A stretch of 64,000 bases of DNA from Dehalococcoidia bacterium. Its GTDB lineage: Bacteria > Chloroflexota > Dehalococcoidia > Bin125. This document shows positions 24,200 to 27,568 of this stretch, piece after piece. Numbering within the stretch: position 1 is the first letter of the stretch; each line of letters begins with the position of its first letter. The translations under genes and the position numbers were made by a program. Below the pieces are notes generated by a model. It was not told the origin of the DNA and made no database searches. It saw nothing but the letters and a program-made list of their open reading frames with translations. The stretch spans positions 416,001 to 480,000 of the forward strand of contig CAXXRD010000001.1 in the NCBI GenBank assembly GCA_963663895.2, in the 5' to 3' direction.

Positions 24200-25072
24200 A
24201 TGCCCAAAATCTTGATCCCGCTGGATGAAGGGCCCGCCTCCGCAACGACGCTGGCGGGCGCGCGCGCGATCATGGGGAACATGCCGTGGACAGTACGGCT
24301 GATCTACAGCGGCCATGACCCCGAGGGAACGATGCGCACCCACATGGATACCGTCGCCGCGGATCTCAAGGAGGAGGGGCATTTCGTCACCGTCGTGATG
24401 ACGGCCGGAGCATCCGACGCGGTCAGCATGCTGCAGCGTGCGATCATCTCGCCTCGCATGGACATCGTTGTACTGACGCGACAGGAAAGCGGGGAGGGGT
24501 GGCTCGATGCCGAAGTACCTGTTGCTATGGCGCACCGCTCCCAGTTCTGTCCGGTTCTGATCATGCCGGCCCCGCCGACGCTGGAAGCAGCCGCGTCGTA
24601 CCAAGTCGGACATCTGCTGGTCGCGTTGGACGGATCCGCGACGGCGGAGCTTGGAATCGATGTAAGCCTGACCTTGGCAGAGCGGCTGGGCGCGCGCGTC
24701 ACCGTCATGACGGTGGCAGAAGCGGGAAAGGCGCCAGTGAGTCAGGCAGAGTCGCCGGCGATCGCGACAGCTGCGGACGCGGAAGGCTACCTGGACGGAG
24801 TCGGGCAGCGATACGCGGATCGCGTGCAGTTCGCGCGCGTGGCCCGCCAGACGAGCCAGCCGATCAGCGACGCGCTCGCCCAGGAAGCACGTCAACGAGG
24901 CGCGCACTTGATCGTCATCACCAGCCACGGCGCCAGCGGCGTCCGCAAGAGCGGCTTGGGGCAGGTCGCCGAAGCGCTGGCGCGGACGGCACCCGTCCCG
25001 GTGTTGATCGCCCGGCCGATTCCGACATCGCAGGTGCGCTTCGGGCGCGGGGCTCTGCTGAAGAGCCGCTAG
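24200..25072 (+). CDS. Tandem universal stress protein (USP)
   Basis: KILIPLD..., LLVALDGS, LIVITSHGASG..KSGLGQVAEAL...PVPVL. Confidence 0.85.
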   Translation: MPKILIPLDEGPASATTLAGARAIMGNMPWTVRLIYSGHDPEGTMRTHMDTVAADLKEEGHFVTVVMTAGASDAVSMLQRAIISPRMDIVVLTRQESGEGWLDAEVPVAMAHRSQFCPVLIMPAPPTLEAAASYQVGHLLVALDGSATAELGIDVSLTLAERLGARVTVMTVAEAGKAPVSQAESPAIATAADAEGYLDGVGQRYADRVQFARVARQTSQPISDALAQEARQRGAHLIVITSHGASGVRKSGLGQVAEALARTAPVPVLIARPIPTSQVRFGRGALLKSR

Positions 25073-26013
25073 CCACCGCGTCGCACCTCCACGCCGGCCA
25101 TCGCCTCGAGTGCTCGTACGAGAGCCTGCGTTCCCTCGTCCTGGGCGTCGTCAGCCTCAAGAGCGTGGAACAGCTGGTGTACGAGCGCGGTACCGGGGAG
25201 AGCAAGCTCGAGCTCCTGAGCCGCGGCCAAGGCAAGGCGCAAGTCCTTCTGTTGCAGTCTGATCATGAAGCCGGGAGCGAAGTCACGGTCGAGGACGCGG
25301 GGCGCGAGATTGCTGAGCATCCACGAGGCAGCAGCGCCCGACGACACGGCCTCCAGCATCTTGGCCGGATCGACGCCAGCCTTTTGCGCGAGCACCAGAC
25401 ACTCGCTCATCGCTAACAGATGGATCGCGCCCGCCACTTGGTTGCAGAGCTTGACGGTCTGGCCCGCTCCCACCGGGCCAACGTGCACGATCGTCTTGCC
25501 CAGCGCCTCGAAGAGAGGACGAGCACGTTCGACGACTTCGCGCTCGCCACCGACCATGATCGCGAGGGTGCCCGATTTGGCGCCGCCCTCTCCTCCTGAG
25601 ACGGGCGCGTCCAACATCGCGACCCCACGTTGGGCGAGCCGGACGGCCAGATCGCGAGTGACCGCGGGGCTAATGGTGCTCATGTCGATGAAGACCGCAC
25701 CGGGCCGGAGCCCGTCGGCAGCACCGTCCGGACCAAAGAGGACCGCCTCGACATCGGGGGAGTCGGTGACCATCGTGATCAAGACGTCGCTGCTTCGTGC
25801 GACGGCGCGCGGGCTCGCGGCCTCCGCGGCGCCATTCGCAAGCGCGGCCTCAATACCAGGACGACTGCGATTCCAGGCGGTAACCGGGAATCCACTCCGC
25901 AAAAGGTTGGCGGCCATGGGGAGGCCCATAATCCCTAAGCCAATGAAACCGACGCGAACCTGGCTGGCAGTCAAGAGCTTCCTCACTGATGGCTCGCCCA
26001 CGAACGGGATCAT
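25069..26013 (-). CDS. NAD(P)-dependent 3-hydroxyisobutyrate dehydrogenase / tartronate semialdehyde reductase family
   Basis: VGFIGLGIMG, DMSTISP, LDAPVSGG, KLCNQ, KDL. The start is uncertain (26013 or 25986). Confidence 0.9.
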   Translation of the reverse strand: MIPFVGEPSVRKLLTASQVRVGFIGLGIMGLPMAANLLRSGFPVTAWNRSRPGIEAALANGAAEAASPRAVARSSDVLITMVTDSPDVEAVLFGPDGAADGLRPGAVFIDMSTISPAVTRDLAVRLAQRGVAMLDAPVSGGEGGAKSGTLAIMVGGEREVVERARPLFEALGKTIVHVGPVGAGQTVKLCNQVAGAIHLLAMSECLVLAQKAGVDPAKMLEAVSSGAAASWMLSNLAPRVLDRDFAPGFMIRLQQKDLRLALAAAQELELALPGTALVHQLFHALEADDAQDEGTQALVRALEAMAGVEVRRGG

Positions 26014-26129
26014 CGCGGGATGAGGCAGTGTTACCACCGAGTAAAATCGGCCACAAGCCACAGGCCGGCAGCATGCACTCATCCACAATAGACCGTGAAT
26101 CGGTTATGCTTGGTTTGTTCGAAAACTGA

Positions 26130-26265
26130 ATAGTTGAGTGGGCCGAATCCCTTTTACCAGGGAGCGGGGGACCCGACTTCTTTGGGGTGAATGGGGCGGA
26201 AACGTCCCTAGGCGTAAACCCTTCGCGCCGAACCCGTCAGCTAACCTCGCAGGCGATCGAGGTGG
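26130..26265 (+). ncRNA. c-di-AMP (ydaO/yuaA) riboswitch aptamer
   Basis: Conserved elements in the expected order: GCCGAATCC (26142), GGGGGACCC, TTTGGGGTGAAT, GGGC-GGAAAC-GTCC hairpin, TAGG...CCTTC, CCGAACCCGTCAGCTAACCTCGCAGGC (ends 26254). A TATGCT -10-like hexamer lies at 26105. Confidence 0.88.
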
Positions 26266-26281
26266 TACCGCGTGTCTCCAG

Positions 26282-26314
26282 ATGCCGACTCGGCCGAGCC
26301 AGTCGGCGTTTTTT
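26282..26314 (+). terminator. Intrinsic terminator (riboswitch expression platform)
   Basis: ATGCCGACT (26282-90) pairs with AGTCGGCGT (26301-09), followed by a T6 tract. Confidence 0.8.
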
Positions 26315-26315
26315 G

Positions 26316-26720
26316 CGCCCGGTTTCGGTTTGGCTCGCTCTCTAGCGTGTGGGTATCAGCGGCATCTTGCTGGATGCCGCCGACCATGAAAGGGACAGGG
26401 TTCTCGCTCTCCCTGTCCGCCTCCTGGCCAACCCGGGTCTTGTGCCCGGGTTGGTTACGTTAAGAGAGAGTTCGGCCGGGGCTTATGCAGGCAAGCACCG
26501 CGGACGCGCTTAGCAACCGCAAAGCCCCTCCGTAAGGCCCAAGGACGCGTCCGCTGCGTCTACAGCAGGCCGCACGGAAGAACGTACGTATAGCCGTCAG
26601 GCCGGTGTGCAGTTCCCACCGCACAGTACCTGGCGGCTCAAGGACGCGCCGCCAGGGCCCTTCATAGAGGCCGCAACCGGTCCGGGGGTCGGCGTTGCAG
26701 TAGACCGGGAGGGGCTGCGC
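26316..26720 (+). ncRNA. Candidate structured non-coding RNA of unknown class
   Basis: At least five perfect 8-10 bp stems, a closing stem and a potential pseudoknot; no convincing ORF. Strand is assumed from the upstream riboswitch. Confidence 0.45.
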
Positions 26721-26737
26721 ACGCATACTCCGCCATT

Positions 26738-27568
26738 ATGCGGACCGATCCGCTCGCCTCCTTTCCGAAGCGCTCAGTTCGTTCCGTGCCGGCGATTTCG
26801 AGCGAGCAGATGCGCAAGGTCGATCGGCTCGCGCTTCGCGATGCCGGCCTCTCGCTGCCGCAGTTGATGGAGAACGCCGGGCGTTCACTGGCACGGGTCG
26901 TCGACGCCTACCTACAACGAGGCAGTCCGGCGGAAAGCGGGGCAGCGCCGCAGAACTCCGAAGCGGCGCGGCACAAGCCGATTCTCGTGCTGGCCGGCAA
27001 CGGCGGCAACGGGGGCGGGGCACTCGCCGCCGCACGTCATCTCCGCAACTGGGGACAGCCGGTCCAAGTGGTGCTGAGCGCGCCGCCCGGCAATCTCAGC
27101 GAAGCGACGGCACAACAGTTGCGAGCGCTGCACAAAGATGGCCTGCGGGCACTCTGGCCGGCCGCTCCCGAGTTCGACGCGCGCTTTCCAGAGTGGCTGC
27201 AGGAAGCAAGCCTCGTCGTGGACGGCTTGATCGGGTACGGCCTGCGCGGGCCGCTACAGGGAGATCCAGCCGTGTTGGTGGAGGCAGTGCTGGATCGAGC
27301 GCCGCCAGTAGTCGTGTCGCTAGACGTGCCCAGTGGTTTCGATGCCAGCAGCGGGGCGGGCGCGGCGAGTGGCGTGGTTGCGACCGCGACAGTCACACTG
27401 GCGCTGCCGAAGACCGGCCTCTTGCAAGGCGATGGAGCCGCCGCGGTCGGCGAACTCCTGCTCGCCGATCTCGGGATTCCCGCCTACATCTACGAACGGC
27501 TCGACATCGACGGTGTCCGGGGATTGTTCGCATCGGGGCCGATCCAGCACCTGGTCGAGGAGGAATAA
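26738..27568 (+). CDS. nnrE: NAD(P)H-hydrate epimerase (stand-alone YjeF-N)
   Basis: QMRKVD, LMENAG, GNGGNGG, VVDGLIGYG, SLDVPSG, TVTLALPK, LADLGIP. Confidence 0.9.
   Translation: MRTDPLASFPKRSVRSVPAISSEQMRKVDRLALRDAGLSLPQLMENAGRSLARVVDAYLQRGSPAESGAAPQNSEAARHKPILVLAGNGGNGGGALAAARHLRNWGQPVQVVLSAPPGNLSEATAQQLRALHKDGLRALWPAAPEFDARFPEWLQEASLVVDGLIGYGLRGPLQGDPAVLVEAVLDRAPPVVVSLDVPSGFDASSGAGAASGVVATATVTLALPKTGLLQGDGAAAVGELLLADLGIPAYIYERLDIDGVRGLFASGPIQHLVEEE

What the first reader, a model, noticed from the sequence alone, without database searches (positions are those of the whole stretch)
26130..26737. c-di-AMP riboswitch whose apparent output is an orphan ~400-nt structured RNA rather than a protein gene
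Seen: a canonical ydaO aptamer and terminator are followed by dense structure. Domain 1 has stems 26359-66/26373-80, 26393-400/26411-18 and 26428-37/26445-54, closed by 26318-48 pairing with 26457-80. Domain 2 has stems 26500-08/26546-54, 26606-10/26621-25, 26629-37/26648-56 and 26677-82/26703-08, plus a 9-nt loop segment AGCCCCTCC (26523-31) complementary to GGAGGGGCT (26708-16), a possible pseudoknot. CAAGGACGCG occurs twice (26540, 26639). The next gene, nnrE, has its own CATACT hexamer 8 nt before its ATG (leaderless-type). Established: c-di-AMP riboswitches are OFF switches for cell-wall, osmolyte and K+ genes, and nnrE is not a typical target. Inference: this is a second-messenger-controlled ncRNA (protein sponge, scaffold or ribozyme) of a class I do not recognise.
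Basis: partly seen in the sequence, partly recalled or inferred. Interest (0 to 1): 0.8.

Follow-up and report, generated by a model that had tools for sequence, protein, structure and literature searches.

The report
c-di-AMP riboswitch driving a small RNA
In one order of uncultured Chloroflexota, a c-di-AMP-sensing riboswitch is followed not by a protein gene but by a conserved, roughly 120-base three-hairpin RNA with its own terminator, so the second messenger probably switches a regulatory RNA on and off.

Summary
The c-di-AMP riboswitch (26131-26270, 92.7 bits) and its terminator are real. The conserved RNA behind them is about 120 nt (26344-26464), not about 400 nt. It has three hairpins: P1, P2 with an invariant loop UUCUCGCUC, a single-stranded linker GCCUCCUGG, and P3 as its own terminator.

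A covariance model finds it in 64 of 65 genomes of the order. All 67 copies lie 67-135 nt behind a c-di-AMP riboswitch on the same strand. In 48 of 64 genomes that riboswitch is the only one detected. The stems covary while the loop and linker do not change. The distance between those two invariant blocks varies by one base, so no shared reading frame exists.

The gene downstream varies and in several genera is convergent. nnrE has its own conserved leaderless-type promoter in 15 of 15 loci.

"Domain 2" (26465-26737) is confined to the genus. It folds no better than shuffled sequence (z -1.6), and its proposed stems and pseudoknot break in relatives.

No Rfam family and no paper found describes this RNA. 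My best reading is a riboswitch-gated small RNA that acts in trans. Targets are unknown: trkH, cdaA and ino1 were tested, and only cdaA gave a partial lead.

The parts
26082..26110 (+). Promoter of the riboswitch transcript: -35-like TCCACA (26082-26087), 17-nt spacer, -10 TATGCT (26105-26110)
   Evidence: Read from the sequence. A TAnnnT hexamer lies 14-27 nt upstream of the Rfam aptamer start in 29 of 30 related loci. The consensus scan found no sigma-70-type site, so this rests on conservation only.
26131..26270 (+). c-di-AMP riboswitch aptamer (ydaO/yuaA, RF00379)
   Evidence: cmscan gives 92.7 bits, E 1.6e-20, model positions 1-134 of 134. It is the only RF00379 match in the 2.37-Mb genome.
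26284..26314 (+). Expression-platform intrinsic terminator (stem GCCGACU/AGUCGGC, then U6)
   Evidence: Terminator scan and the sequence. Similar hairpin plus U-tract elements follow the aptamer in most genera.
26315..26343 (+). Variable linker between the riboswitch terminator and the small-RNA module, with no conserved -10 box
   Evidence: TAnnnT is present in the linker in only 2 of 30 loci. The gap from riboswitch to module is 67-135 nt, median 99, in 67 of 67 cases.
26344..26464 (+). Conserved small-RNA module (match to covariance models R1 and R2)
   Evidence: R1 gives 109.4 bits and R2 97.7 bits at G000:C1:442344-442464, which is window 26344-26464. The module is found in 64 of 65 genomes of the order. 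The fold has z -5.30.
26349..26386 (+). P1 hairpin: upper stem 26359-66/26373-80, short basal helix about 26349-52/26383-86, internal loop
   Evidence: The upper stem is 90.1% paired, and all 5 pairs show changes on both sides. The basal helix is only 60.7% paired and is weakly supported.
26393..26418 (+). P2 hairpin: stem GGACAGGG/CCCUGUCC, loop UUCUCGCUCU (26401-26410) with invariant core UCGCUC
   Evidence: The stem is 99.1% paired, and 3 pairs change on both sides in the divergent genera. The loop core is invariant in all full-length rows of A2.
26419..26427 (+). Single-stranded linker GCCUCCUGG, which contains CCUCC (recalled to match the anti-Shine-Dalgarno core of 16S rRNA)
   Evidence: Nearly invariant in the alignment and unpaired in the consensus structure.
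26428..26464 (+). P3: the small RNA's own terminator hairpin (26428-37/26445-54) and U-containing tail
   Evidence: 97.7% paired, with 8 of 11 pairs changing on both sides. At least 4 U occur in the 9 nt after the stem in 27 of 29 distinct sequences. This genome has 4, a weak tract.
26465..26723 (+). 'Domain 2': genus-specific intergenic spacer, not part of the conserved RNA
   Evidence: BLASTN similarity is limited to the two same-genus genomes. The fold has z -1.60. The helices lack covariation support. One genome has a roughly 225-nt insertion at its 5' edge.
26724..26729 (+). -10 box CATACT of nnrE, 8 nt before the ATG (leaderless-type promoter)
   Evidence: [C/G]ATACT ends 6-8 nt before the ATG in 15 of 15 nnrE loci.
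26738..27568 (+). nnrE (YjeF_N, NAD(P)H-hydrate epimerase family), a neighbour and not the riboswitch's conserved target
   Evidence: Pfam PF03853, 126.6 bits. It lies downstream of the RNA in only 15 of 35 loci examined.
25069..26013 (-). Divergent upstream gene, 3-hydroxyisobutyrate-dehydrogenase-like (the ORF is open to 26088; the start at 26013 is assumed)
   Evidence: Pfam NAD_binding_2 at 185.9 bits and NAD_binding_11 at 137.8 bits. A homologue lies upstream of the riboswitch in 22 of 35 loci, which extend only about 1.5 kb to each side.

Best explanation
This is a riboswitch-gated small RNA. One promoter (-10 at 26105-26110) drives a transcript that begins with the c-di-AMP aptamer and its intrinsic terminator. 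When c-di-AMP is bound, transcription is expected to stop at about 26314 and give a short riboswitch-only RNA. This step is inferred from recall that characterised c-di-AMP riboswitches are OFF switches. When c-di-AMP is low, the polymerase reads through and makes the roughly 120-nt three-hairpin module (26344-26464), which ends at its own terminator P3. The module then acts away from its own locus. The most likely mode is base-pairing of its two invariant, unpaired, pyrimidine-rich elements to purine-rich sites such as Shine-Dalgarno regions or the 5' ends of mRNAs. Those elements are the P2 loop UUCUCGCUC and the linker GCCUCCUGG. What is shown: the RNA is real, structured, non-coding and physically coupled to the riboswitch across a whole order. 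What is inferred: the OFF logic, co-transcription, and the trans base-pairing mode. The targets are unknown.
For: 1. Riboswitch and terminator.

2. Conservation: R1 matches full length in 64 of 65 genomes of the order, 67 copies in all. There were 0 matches in 144 other genomes of the class and 0 in 150 of the phylum sample. Nothing significant was found in 33 riboswitch loci without this RNA, 29 of them from other families and 4 from within this family (best 13.6 bits, E 0.12).

3. Coupling: 67 of 67 copies have an RF00379 riboswitch 67-135 nt upstream on the same strand. 67 of 84 riboswitches in the order are followed by the RNA. 48 of 64 genomes have no other c-di-AMP riboswitch. Duplicated copies in G005 and G012 each carry their own riboswitch, and G073 lacks both elements.

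4. Structure: 91.8% of cells are paired against 76.8% in shuffles. 19 pairs change on both sides, 0 of 500 shuffles reach the observed values, and slid controls give 35-60%. On the independent MAFFT alignment the figure is 90.6% with 13 such pairs. The fold has z -5.30.

5. Not coding: the two invariant blocks are 16 nt apart in 16 of 29 distinct sequences, 17 nt in 12 and 14 nt in 1. No frame has an ORF of at least 20 aa in more than 17 of 29.

6. No separate promoter: a TAnnnT box lies upstream of the aptamer in 29 of 30 loci, but in the linker before P1 in only 2 of 30.

7. No conserved cis target: nnrE is downstream in only 15 of 35 loci. In 6 of 12 loci inspected, a gene-like ORF on the opposite strand ends 6-44 nt after the RNA. 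nnrE has its own leaderless-type -10 in 15 of 15 loci.

8. The genome encodes a diadenylate cyclase.

9. Weak expression hints: contigs from RNA libraries cover 26063-26358 and 26308-26536 but not the flanking genes.
Against: No transcript ends or strand were observed. The RNA-library data are assembled contigs and may contain DNA. One of those contigs runs through P3 into Domain 2 (26308-26536 plus 18 nt). Together with the weak U-tract here, this suggests P3 may terminate poorly in this genus.

No conserved target was found. The best start-region duplex in this genome is trkH at -33.1 kcal/mol, first of 22,255 windows, but it is kept only within the genus. The ino1 site is also genus-only. 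The cdaA 5'-UTR site is present in only 11 of 30 loci.

The basal helix of P1 is poorly supported at 60.7% paired. In the largest genus (g6) the sequence after the aptamer lacks an obvious U-tract terminator, so the gating mechanism may differ there. Hfq was not found in a genome that is 91% complete. Ligand binding and the OFF logic were not tested.
Confidence: 0.6

Rival explanations
1. The riboswitch-gated RNA works by binding and sequestering a protein, in the manner of EutX/Rli55 or CsrB-type RNAs, rather than by pairing with mRNAs. The invariant P2 hairpin and linker would be the protein's binding site.
For: The sequence is invariant in the loop and linker while the stems covary, which fits a protein site as well as a seed. 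No conserved mRNA target was found among the three candidates tested. Known riboswitch-containing sRNAs EutX and Rli55 act by protein sequestration (passage read in PMC8237595).
Against: The RNA has only one copy of each motif, whereas sponges usually repeat their site. There is no dual-hexaloop ANTAR-type motif, going by the alignment and my recall of that motif. No candidate binding protein is encoded next to the locus in a conserved way.
Confidence: 0.17
2. The small RNA is an independent gene with its own promoter that merely sits behind the riboswitch. The riboswitch is then an orphan or decoy element, or only modulates read-through into the small RNA.
For: An A/T-richer patch precedes P1 in some genera, for example AACTGT or AACTAT. 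The RNA-library contig X1 begins at 26308, after the riboswitch.
Against: TAnnnT is found in the linker in only 2 of 30 loci, against 29 of 30 upstream of the aptamer. The adjacency is 67 of 67 with a narrow 67-135 nt gap, and the two elements are duplicated together and missing together. This is hard to explain without a functional link. Contig ends are not transcript ends.
Confidence: 0.1
3. The whole 26131-26737 stretch is a long cis-acting leader of nnrE. The hairpins would be tandem attenuators, or the first reader's roughly 400-nt two-domain structured RNA.
For: In this genome and genus nothing else lies between the riboswitch and nnrE. A contig from an RNA library crosses P3 into Domain 2. 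nnrE follows the RNA in 15 of 35 loci.
Against: nnrE is absent downstream in 20 of 35 loci, and several genera have a convergent gene instead. nnrE has a conserved -10 box 6-8 nt from its ATG in 15 of 15 loci. Domain 2 is confined to the genus, is interrupted by a 225-nt insertion in G002, folds with z -1.6 and has no covariation support.
Confidence: 0.06
4. The conserved block encodes a small peptide, for example the 25-codon ATG ORF starting at 26386.
For: An ATG at 26386 opens a 25-codon frame through the conserved block. High G+C content keeps many frames open.
Against: That ATG is ATA or AAA in relatives. One-base length differences lie between the two invariant blocks (16 nt in 16 sequences, 17 nt in 12). 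No frame is shared by more than 17 of 29 sequences. The variation follows base-pairing, not codon positions.
Confidence: 0.02

Closest known systems
EutX (Enterococcus faecalis) and Rli55 (Listeria monocytogenes): AdoCbl-riboswitch-containing small RNAs
   Same: A riboswitch in the 5' part of a non-coding transcript decides by premature termination whether the functional 3' part is made. No ORF is involved. This description comes from a passage read in PMC8237595. DebRoy et al. 2014 was seen only as an entry in the reference list of PMC7266159.
   Different: The ligand is a second messenger, c-di-AMP, not a cofactor. The 3' module here has no resemblance to the dual-hairpin ANTAR-binding platform. 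No partner protein or operon is linked. The host is Chloroflexota, not Firmicutes.
Ordinary c-di-AMP (ydaO/yuaA) riboswitches, RF00379
   Same: The aptamer is a full-length, high-scoring member followed by an intrinsic terminator.
   Different: Described members sit upstream of protein genes such as K+ and amino-acid transporters and cell-wall genes (passage in PMC7266159). Here the conserved downstream element is an RNA with its own terminator, and in 48 of 64 genomes it follows the only such riboswitch.
SAM-riboswitch RNAs that also act in trans (SreA/SreB of Listeria, recalled; a SAM-I riboswitch/sRNA in Desulfovibrio vulgaris, preprint 10.1101/803072, abstract seen in the listing)
   Same: The product of a riboswitch locus acts as a trans regulator.
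   Different: In those cases the riboswitch RNA itself is the trans-acting part and still controls a downstream gene. Here a separate, dedicated module lies behind the terminator.
C-rich-seed small RNAs of Gram-positive bacteria (RsaE/RoxS, 6C RNA), named from recall
   Same: They work in a similar way: unpaired pyrimidine-rich motifs in loops and linkers of a short multi-hairpin RNA ending in a terminator, expected to pair with G-rich ribosome-binding sites without a need for Hfq.
   Different: There is no sequence or model similarity, since no Rfam hit appears even at E up to 10. The motifs here are UCUCGCUC and CCUCCU rather than CCCC runs. None of those RNAs is known to me to be riboswitch-gated.

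Membership tests
c-di-AMP riboswitch (Rfam RF00379) | Match to the covariance model above the curated gathering score, over the full length | tested here: met
   92.7 bits against 38, model positions 1-134 of 134
c-di-AMP riboswitch (Rfam RF00379) | Expression platform (intrinsic terminator) directly after the aptamer | tested here: met
   Hairpin at 26284-26307 plus T6. Not obvious in genus g6.
c-di-AMP riboswitch (Rfam RF00379) | Binds c-di-AMP and switches transcription | not testable with these tools
   Needs in-line probing or in vitro transcription
c-di-AMP riboswitch (Rfam RF00379) | Sits in the 5' leader of the protein-coding gene it controls | tested here: not met
   No conserved ORF follows. 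The next conserved element is an RNA with its own terminator.
Riboswitch-gated small RNA (EutX/Rli55 kind) | Riboswitch and a conserved non-coding 3' module on one strand with no ORF between them | tested here: met
   67 of 67 copies, gap 67-135 nt. No shared reading frame.
Riboswitch-gated small RNA (EutX/Rli55 kind) | Single promoter upstream of the riboswitch, so the module is made only by read-through | tested here: inconclusive
   A -10 box lies upstream of the aptamer in 29 of 30 loci and in the linker in 2 of 30. This is motif evidence only, with no transcript ends.
Riboswitch-gated small RNA (EutX/Rli55 kind) | Module acts in trans on a protein or on mRNAs | not testable with these tools
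   Target predictions were inconclusive
Any described RNA family (6S, RNase P, tmRNA, known sRNAs, ribozymes) | Match to an Rfam 15 model | tested here: not met
   No hit above gathering in the window other than RF00379. With E up to 10 on 25900-27000, only chance-level hits of 18 bits or less.
Protein-coding small ORF | A start codon and a frame conserved across relatives | tested here: not met
   The ATG at 26386 is not conserved. A frame-shifting spacing difference exists, and the best frame is shared by 17 of 29.

The most novel reading that the evidence does not exclude
In a whole order of Chloroflexota, the RNA arm of c-di-AMP signalling has been handed to one trans-acting small RNA. The only c-di-AMP riboswitch in most genomes gates an RNA whose invariant pyrimidine-rich loop and anti-Shine-Dalgarno-like linker control a regulon post-transcriptionally. 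This regulon may include feedback on the cyclase gene cdaA, whose 5' UTR carries the exact complement of the loop in several genera. It would be the first case of a second-messenger riboswitch whose dedicated output is a regulatory RNA hub.
Probability: 0.35. Interest if true: 0.8.

Novelty: new variant of a known kind. Interest (0 to 1): 0.62.

Why it matters
Riboswitches are almost always read as cis regulators of the next gene. The few known exceptions, EutX/Rli55 and some SAM riboswitch RNAs, involve cofactor or metabolite ligands.

Here a second-messenger riboswitch is coupled in 67 of 67 cases to a dedicated, structurally conserved non-coding RNA. In most genomes of the order it is the only such riboswitch. 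If the RNA acts in trans, one riboswitch can control many genes. c-di-AMP regulons predicted from riboswitch neighbours would then miss all of them.

The case also adds a new RNA family with strong covariation from a poorly studied, uncultured lineage. Its prediction is simple to test: c-di-AMP-dependent termination before a roughly 120-nt module. Because the organisms are uncultured, in vivo tests will be difficult.

Tried and rejected
Rfam at permissive thresholds on 25900-27000 gave only chance-level hits.

BLASTN of 26280-26740 in 41 relatives matched in 13 genomes. This understated the distribution, and the covariance model was needed to see it.

An exact-pattern scan of 185,579 species genomes gave 10 stretches. 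Eight carry the RNA, six of which duplicate loci already held. Two (L018, L023) look like chance matches inside other sequence.

Target prediction gave no firm result.
- RNAduplex of two seeds was run against 22,255 candidate start windows of a crude ORF call. The distributions were only slightly better than for shuffled seeds.
- trkH (first by energy), ino1 and a P-II-like gene have SD-region complementarity in this genome. The trkH and ino1 sites are not kept outside the genus. The P-II-like gene was not followed up.
- The cdaA 5' UTR holds the 9-mer complement of the P2 loop at -94. A 7-mer complement is present in 11 of 30 cdaA loci against a 5-6% background. It is absent from g9, g5, g4 and most of g6, so it remains a lead only.
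- Longer perfect complements elsewhere in the genome lie in uninformative contexts.

I considered a pseudoknot between the GYGRG motif upstream of P1 and the P2 loop. That motif pairs instead with CUCR after P1, forming the P1 base, so I dropped the idea. I also considered pairing of the P2 loop with the aptamer's GAGCGGGGG. The aptamer reads GAACG in many loci with no compensating change, so I dropped that too (inspection).

Sequencing runs: three RNA-library runs hold small shares of the stretch (0.19, 0.07, 0.06). Only assembled contigs could be laid, so they give no ends, strand or levels. Uncovered parts mean nothing.

Four literature searches found no report of a c-di-AMP riboswitch controlling a small RNA (with passages).
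Full report
THE OBSERVATION

The window holds one Rfam match above gathering score: the c-di-AMP riboswitch aptamer at 26131-26270 on the + strand (92.7 bits, gathering 38, full model). A hairpin at 26284-26307 followed by six T is picked up by the terminator scan.

They form the minimum-energy fold of 26344-26464, at -63 kcal/mol against -43.7 +/- 3.6 for shuffles (z -5.30, 0 of 200 as good). The repeated 10-mer and the CATACT hexamer 8 nt before the nnrE ATG are also there. nnrE is a YjeF_N protein.

No other Rfam family matches the region, even at E up to 10.

WHAT IS CONSERVED

BLASTN of 26280-26740 against 41 relatives matched the whole stretch only in the two genomes of the same genus (88% identity, and 89%/71% in two pieces). 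A core of 50-70 nt (26388-26456) matched at 83-93% identity in other genera. In all 13 loci fetched, an RF00379 riboswitch lay just upstream on the same strand.

A MAFFT alignment of 16 distinct copies gave a three-hairpin consensus. Each sequence folds that way on its own. The parts are:
- P1, a hairpin with an internal loop.
- P2, whose loop is UUCUCGCUC.
- A single-stranded linker, GCCUCCUG(G/A).
- P3, a G+C-rich hairpin followed by a U-containing tail, which looks like an intrinsic terminator.

On this alignment 90.6% of cells are paired (shuffles 82.9%, slid controls 34-55%). Thirteen pairs change on both sides.

DISTRIBUTION

A covariance model built from that alignment (R1) matches full length in 64 of 65 genomes of the family, 67 copies in all. 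The family turns out to be the whole order. Record titles from a pattern scan name the group as uncultured Chloroflexota/Dehalococcoidia MAGs.

Outside the order nothing was found:
- 0 of 144 other genomes in a class-wide sample spanning 62 other families.
- 0 of 150 in a phylum-wide sample with a broader model, R2.
- Nothing significant with filters off in 33 riboswitch loci that lack this RNA, 29 from other families of the class and 4 from this family (best 13.6 bits).

These are samples, so the correct statement is "not found in those searched".

With the divergent genera added (alignment A2, fitted to the model), P2 also covaries, for example GGACAGGG/CCCUGUCC against GGGGCACGGG/CCCGUCCCC. 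The loop core and the linker stay the same. Overall, 91.8% of cells are paired against 76.8% in shuffles. Nineteen pairs have double changes, and 0 of 500 shuffles reach any of the five measures. Only the 4-bp base of P1 is weak, at 60.7% paired.

COUPLING TO THE RIBOSWITCH

RF00379 matches 84 times in the same 64 of 65 genomes. Comparing coordinates gives the following:
- 67 of 67 RNA copies have a riboswitch 67-135 nt upstream (median 99) on the same strand.
- 67 of 84 riboswitches are followed by the RNA.
- 48 of 64 genomes have no other c-di-AMP riboswitch. The window's own genome is one of these.

Genomes with two or three copies of the RNA (G005, G012) have a riboswitch before each copy. 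The single genome without the RNA (G073, 94% complete) also lacks the riboswitch.

Four of the 17 other riboswitches in the order were inspected. They precede radical-SAM-like ORFs of about 470 aa and zinc-ribbon ORFs of 69-76 aa.

NOT A GENE LEADER AND NOT A PEPTIDE

The gene upstream, a divergent 3-hydroxyisobutyrate-dehydrogenase-like gene, is found in 22 of 35 loci. nnrE is downstream in only 15 of 35. In 6 of 12 loci inspected (genera g6, g7, g8), a gene-like ORF on the opposite strand ends 6-44 nt after the RNA. In those loci there is no same-strand gene for the riboswitch to control.

Where nnrE is present, [C/G]ATACT ends 6-8 nt before its ATG in 15 of 15 loci.

The ATG at 26386 is not conserved. 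The two invariant blocks are 16 nt apart in 16 of 29 distinct sequences, 17 nt in 12 and 14 nt in 1. They therefore cannot share a reading frame, and no frame carries an ORF of at least 20 aa in more than 17 of 29 sequences.

PROMOTERS

A TAnnnT hexamer lies 14-27 nt upstream of the Rfam aptamer start in 29 of 30 loci, often with a TTGACA-like hexamer 17-18 nt further up. In the window these are TATGCT at 26105-26110 and TCCACA at 26082-26087.

Between the riboswitch terminator and P1, a TAnnnT occurs in only 2 of 30 loci. This is motif evidence only, but it points to one transcription unit.

DOMAIN 2

Domain 2 (26465-26737) is similar only within the genus. In G002 it is separated from the small RNA by a roughly 225-nt insertion. 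It folds no better than shuffled sequence (z -1.60, 11 of 200 as good).

They show one compensatory change, and 13 of 37 pairs are broken in at least one genome. Three sequences give little power. Still, the substitutions disrupt far more often than they compensate. I read Domain 2 as a spacer plus the nnrE promoter.

One caveat applies. A 239-nt contig from an RNA library covers 26308-26536 and continues for 18 nt, crossing P3. P3 has a weak U-tract in this genus. Read-through into Domain 2 in this genus cannot be excluded.

HOW IT MOST LIKELY WORKS

Shown: a conserved, structured, non-coding RNA is physically tied to the riboswitch across the order, and the genome has a diadenylate cyclase gene.

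Inferred:
- c-di-AMP binding favours the first terminator. This is the OFF logic, recalled from characterised members.
- Low c-di-AMP allows read-through, producing the module, which stops at P3.
- The module acts in trans.

The stems covary while two unpaired pyrimidine-rich elements never change. This is the pattern expected of seed regions or of a protein-binding site. The linker contains CCUCC, recalled to be the core of the anti-Shine-Dalgarno sequence, so pairing with ribosome-binding sites is the simplest mode. Hfq was not found in a genome that is 91% complete.

TARGET SEARCH

I could not establish any target.
- trkH. The best duplex among 22,255 candidate start windows in this genome is at the start of a TrkH-family K+ transporter gene: -33.1 kcal/mol, 14 bp with one bulge, abutting the AUG. 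This is suggestive for c-di-AMP biology. However, the site is kept only in the three near-identical genomes of the genus.
- ino1. An SD-region site at the inositol-1-phosphate synthase gene is likewise confined to the genus.
- cdaA. The 5' UTR carries the exact 9-mer complement of the P2 loop at -94. A complement of at least 7 nt occurs within 120 nt upstream of cdaA in 11 of 30 loci, against a 5-6% background. In G008 it occurs twice. It is missing in several genera, and related genomes are not independent observations. This is a lead for a feedback loop, not a finding.

COMPARISON WITH KNOWN SYSTEMS

In mechanism the closest systems are EutX and Rli55. There an AdoCbl riboswitch in the 5' part of a small RNA allows the full-length RNA only without ligand, and the 3' part binds a regulator (passage in PMC8237595). 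The differences here are the ligand class, the unrelated 3' module, the absence of a linked operon, and the lineage.

The aptamer is an ordinary RF00379 member. The locus fails the usual riboswitch criterion of sitting in the leader of the gene it controls.

Four full-text searches found no report of a c-di-AMP riboswitch gating a small RNA (passages). Subscription journals and supplementary files were not visible.

VERDICT

I rate it a new variant of a known kind, with interest 0.62. Confidence is high that the RNA is real and riboswitch-coupled. It is moderate for the trans-acting base-pairing mode, and the targets are unknown.

Noticed in passing
window 26724-26740; loci L026-L041: nnrE appears to be leaderless across genera. 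[C/G]ATACT ends 6-8 nt before the ATG in 15 of 15 loci.
   Followed up: yes
L132-L161 (cdaA loci); own genome G000:C5 about 164798: The 5' UTR of the diadenylate cyclase gene cdaA carries GAGCGAGA(A), the exact complement of the small RNA's invariant loop, shortly after a TAGNNT box in several genera. G008 has two copies. It is present in 11 of 30 loci against a 5-6% background.
   Followed up: partly
L101-L103 (G000:C5:29853-31262, minus strand): The start region of a TrkH-family K+ transporter gene pairs over 14 bp with the small RNA's linker. It was the top hit of 22,255 windows, but the site is conserved only within the genus.
   Followed up: yes
L167, L168, L169, L170: Other c-di-AMP riboswitches in this order precede radical-SAM-like ORFs of about 470 aa (weak Pfam hits of 22.6-29.3 bits) and zinc-ribbon ORFs of 69-76 aa. 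These are unusual riboswitch neighbours.
   Followed up: partly
L045, L049, L050, L052-L054 (genus g6), region between aptamer and small RNA: In the largest genus the sequence after the aptamer has conserved hairpins but no clear U-tract terminator. The expression platform may therefore work differently there.
   Followed up: no
L003 1691-1915 (G002): A roughly 225-nt insertion, lower in G+C, lies directly after the small RNA's terminator in one genome of the genus. Its origin was not examined.
   Followed up: no
3' tails of the RNA in A2 (window 26455-26464): The tail after P3 very often reads U-rich followed by UAAG, for example UUUUAAG or CUUUAAGG. No explanation was sought.
   Followed up: no
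window 26063-26536: Contigs from coral, marine and sponge metatranscriptome libraries (coded X1-X3) cover parts of the riboswitch and small-RNA region at 90-99% identity. They do not cover the flanking genes, apart from one short piece at 26700-26763. They are contigs only and the shares are small.
   Followed up: partly
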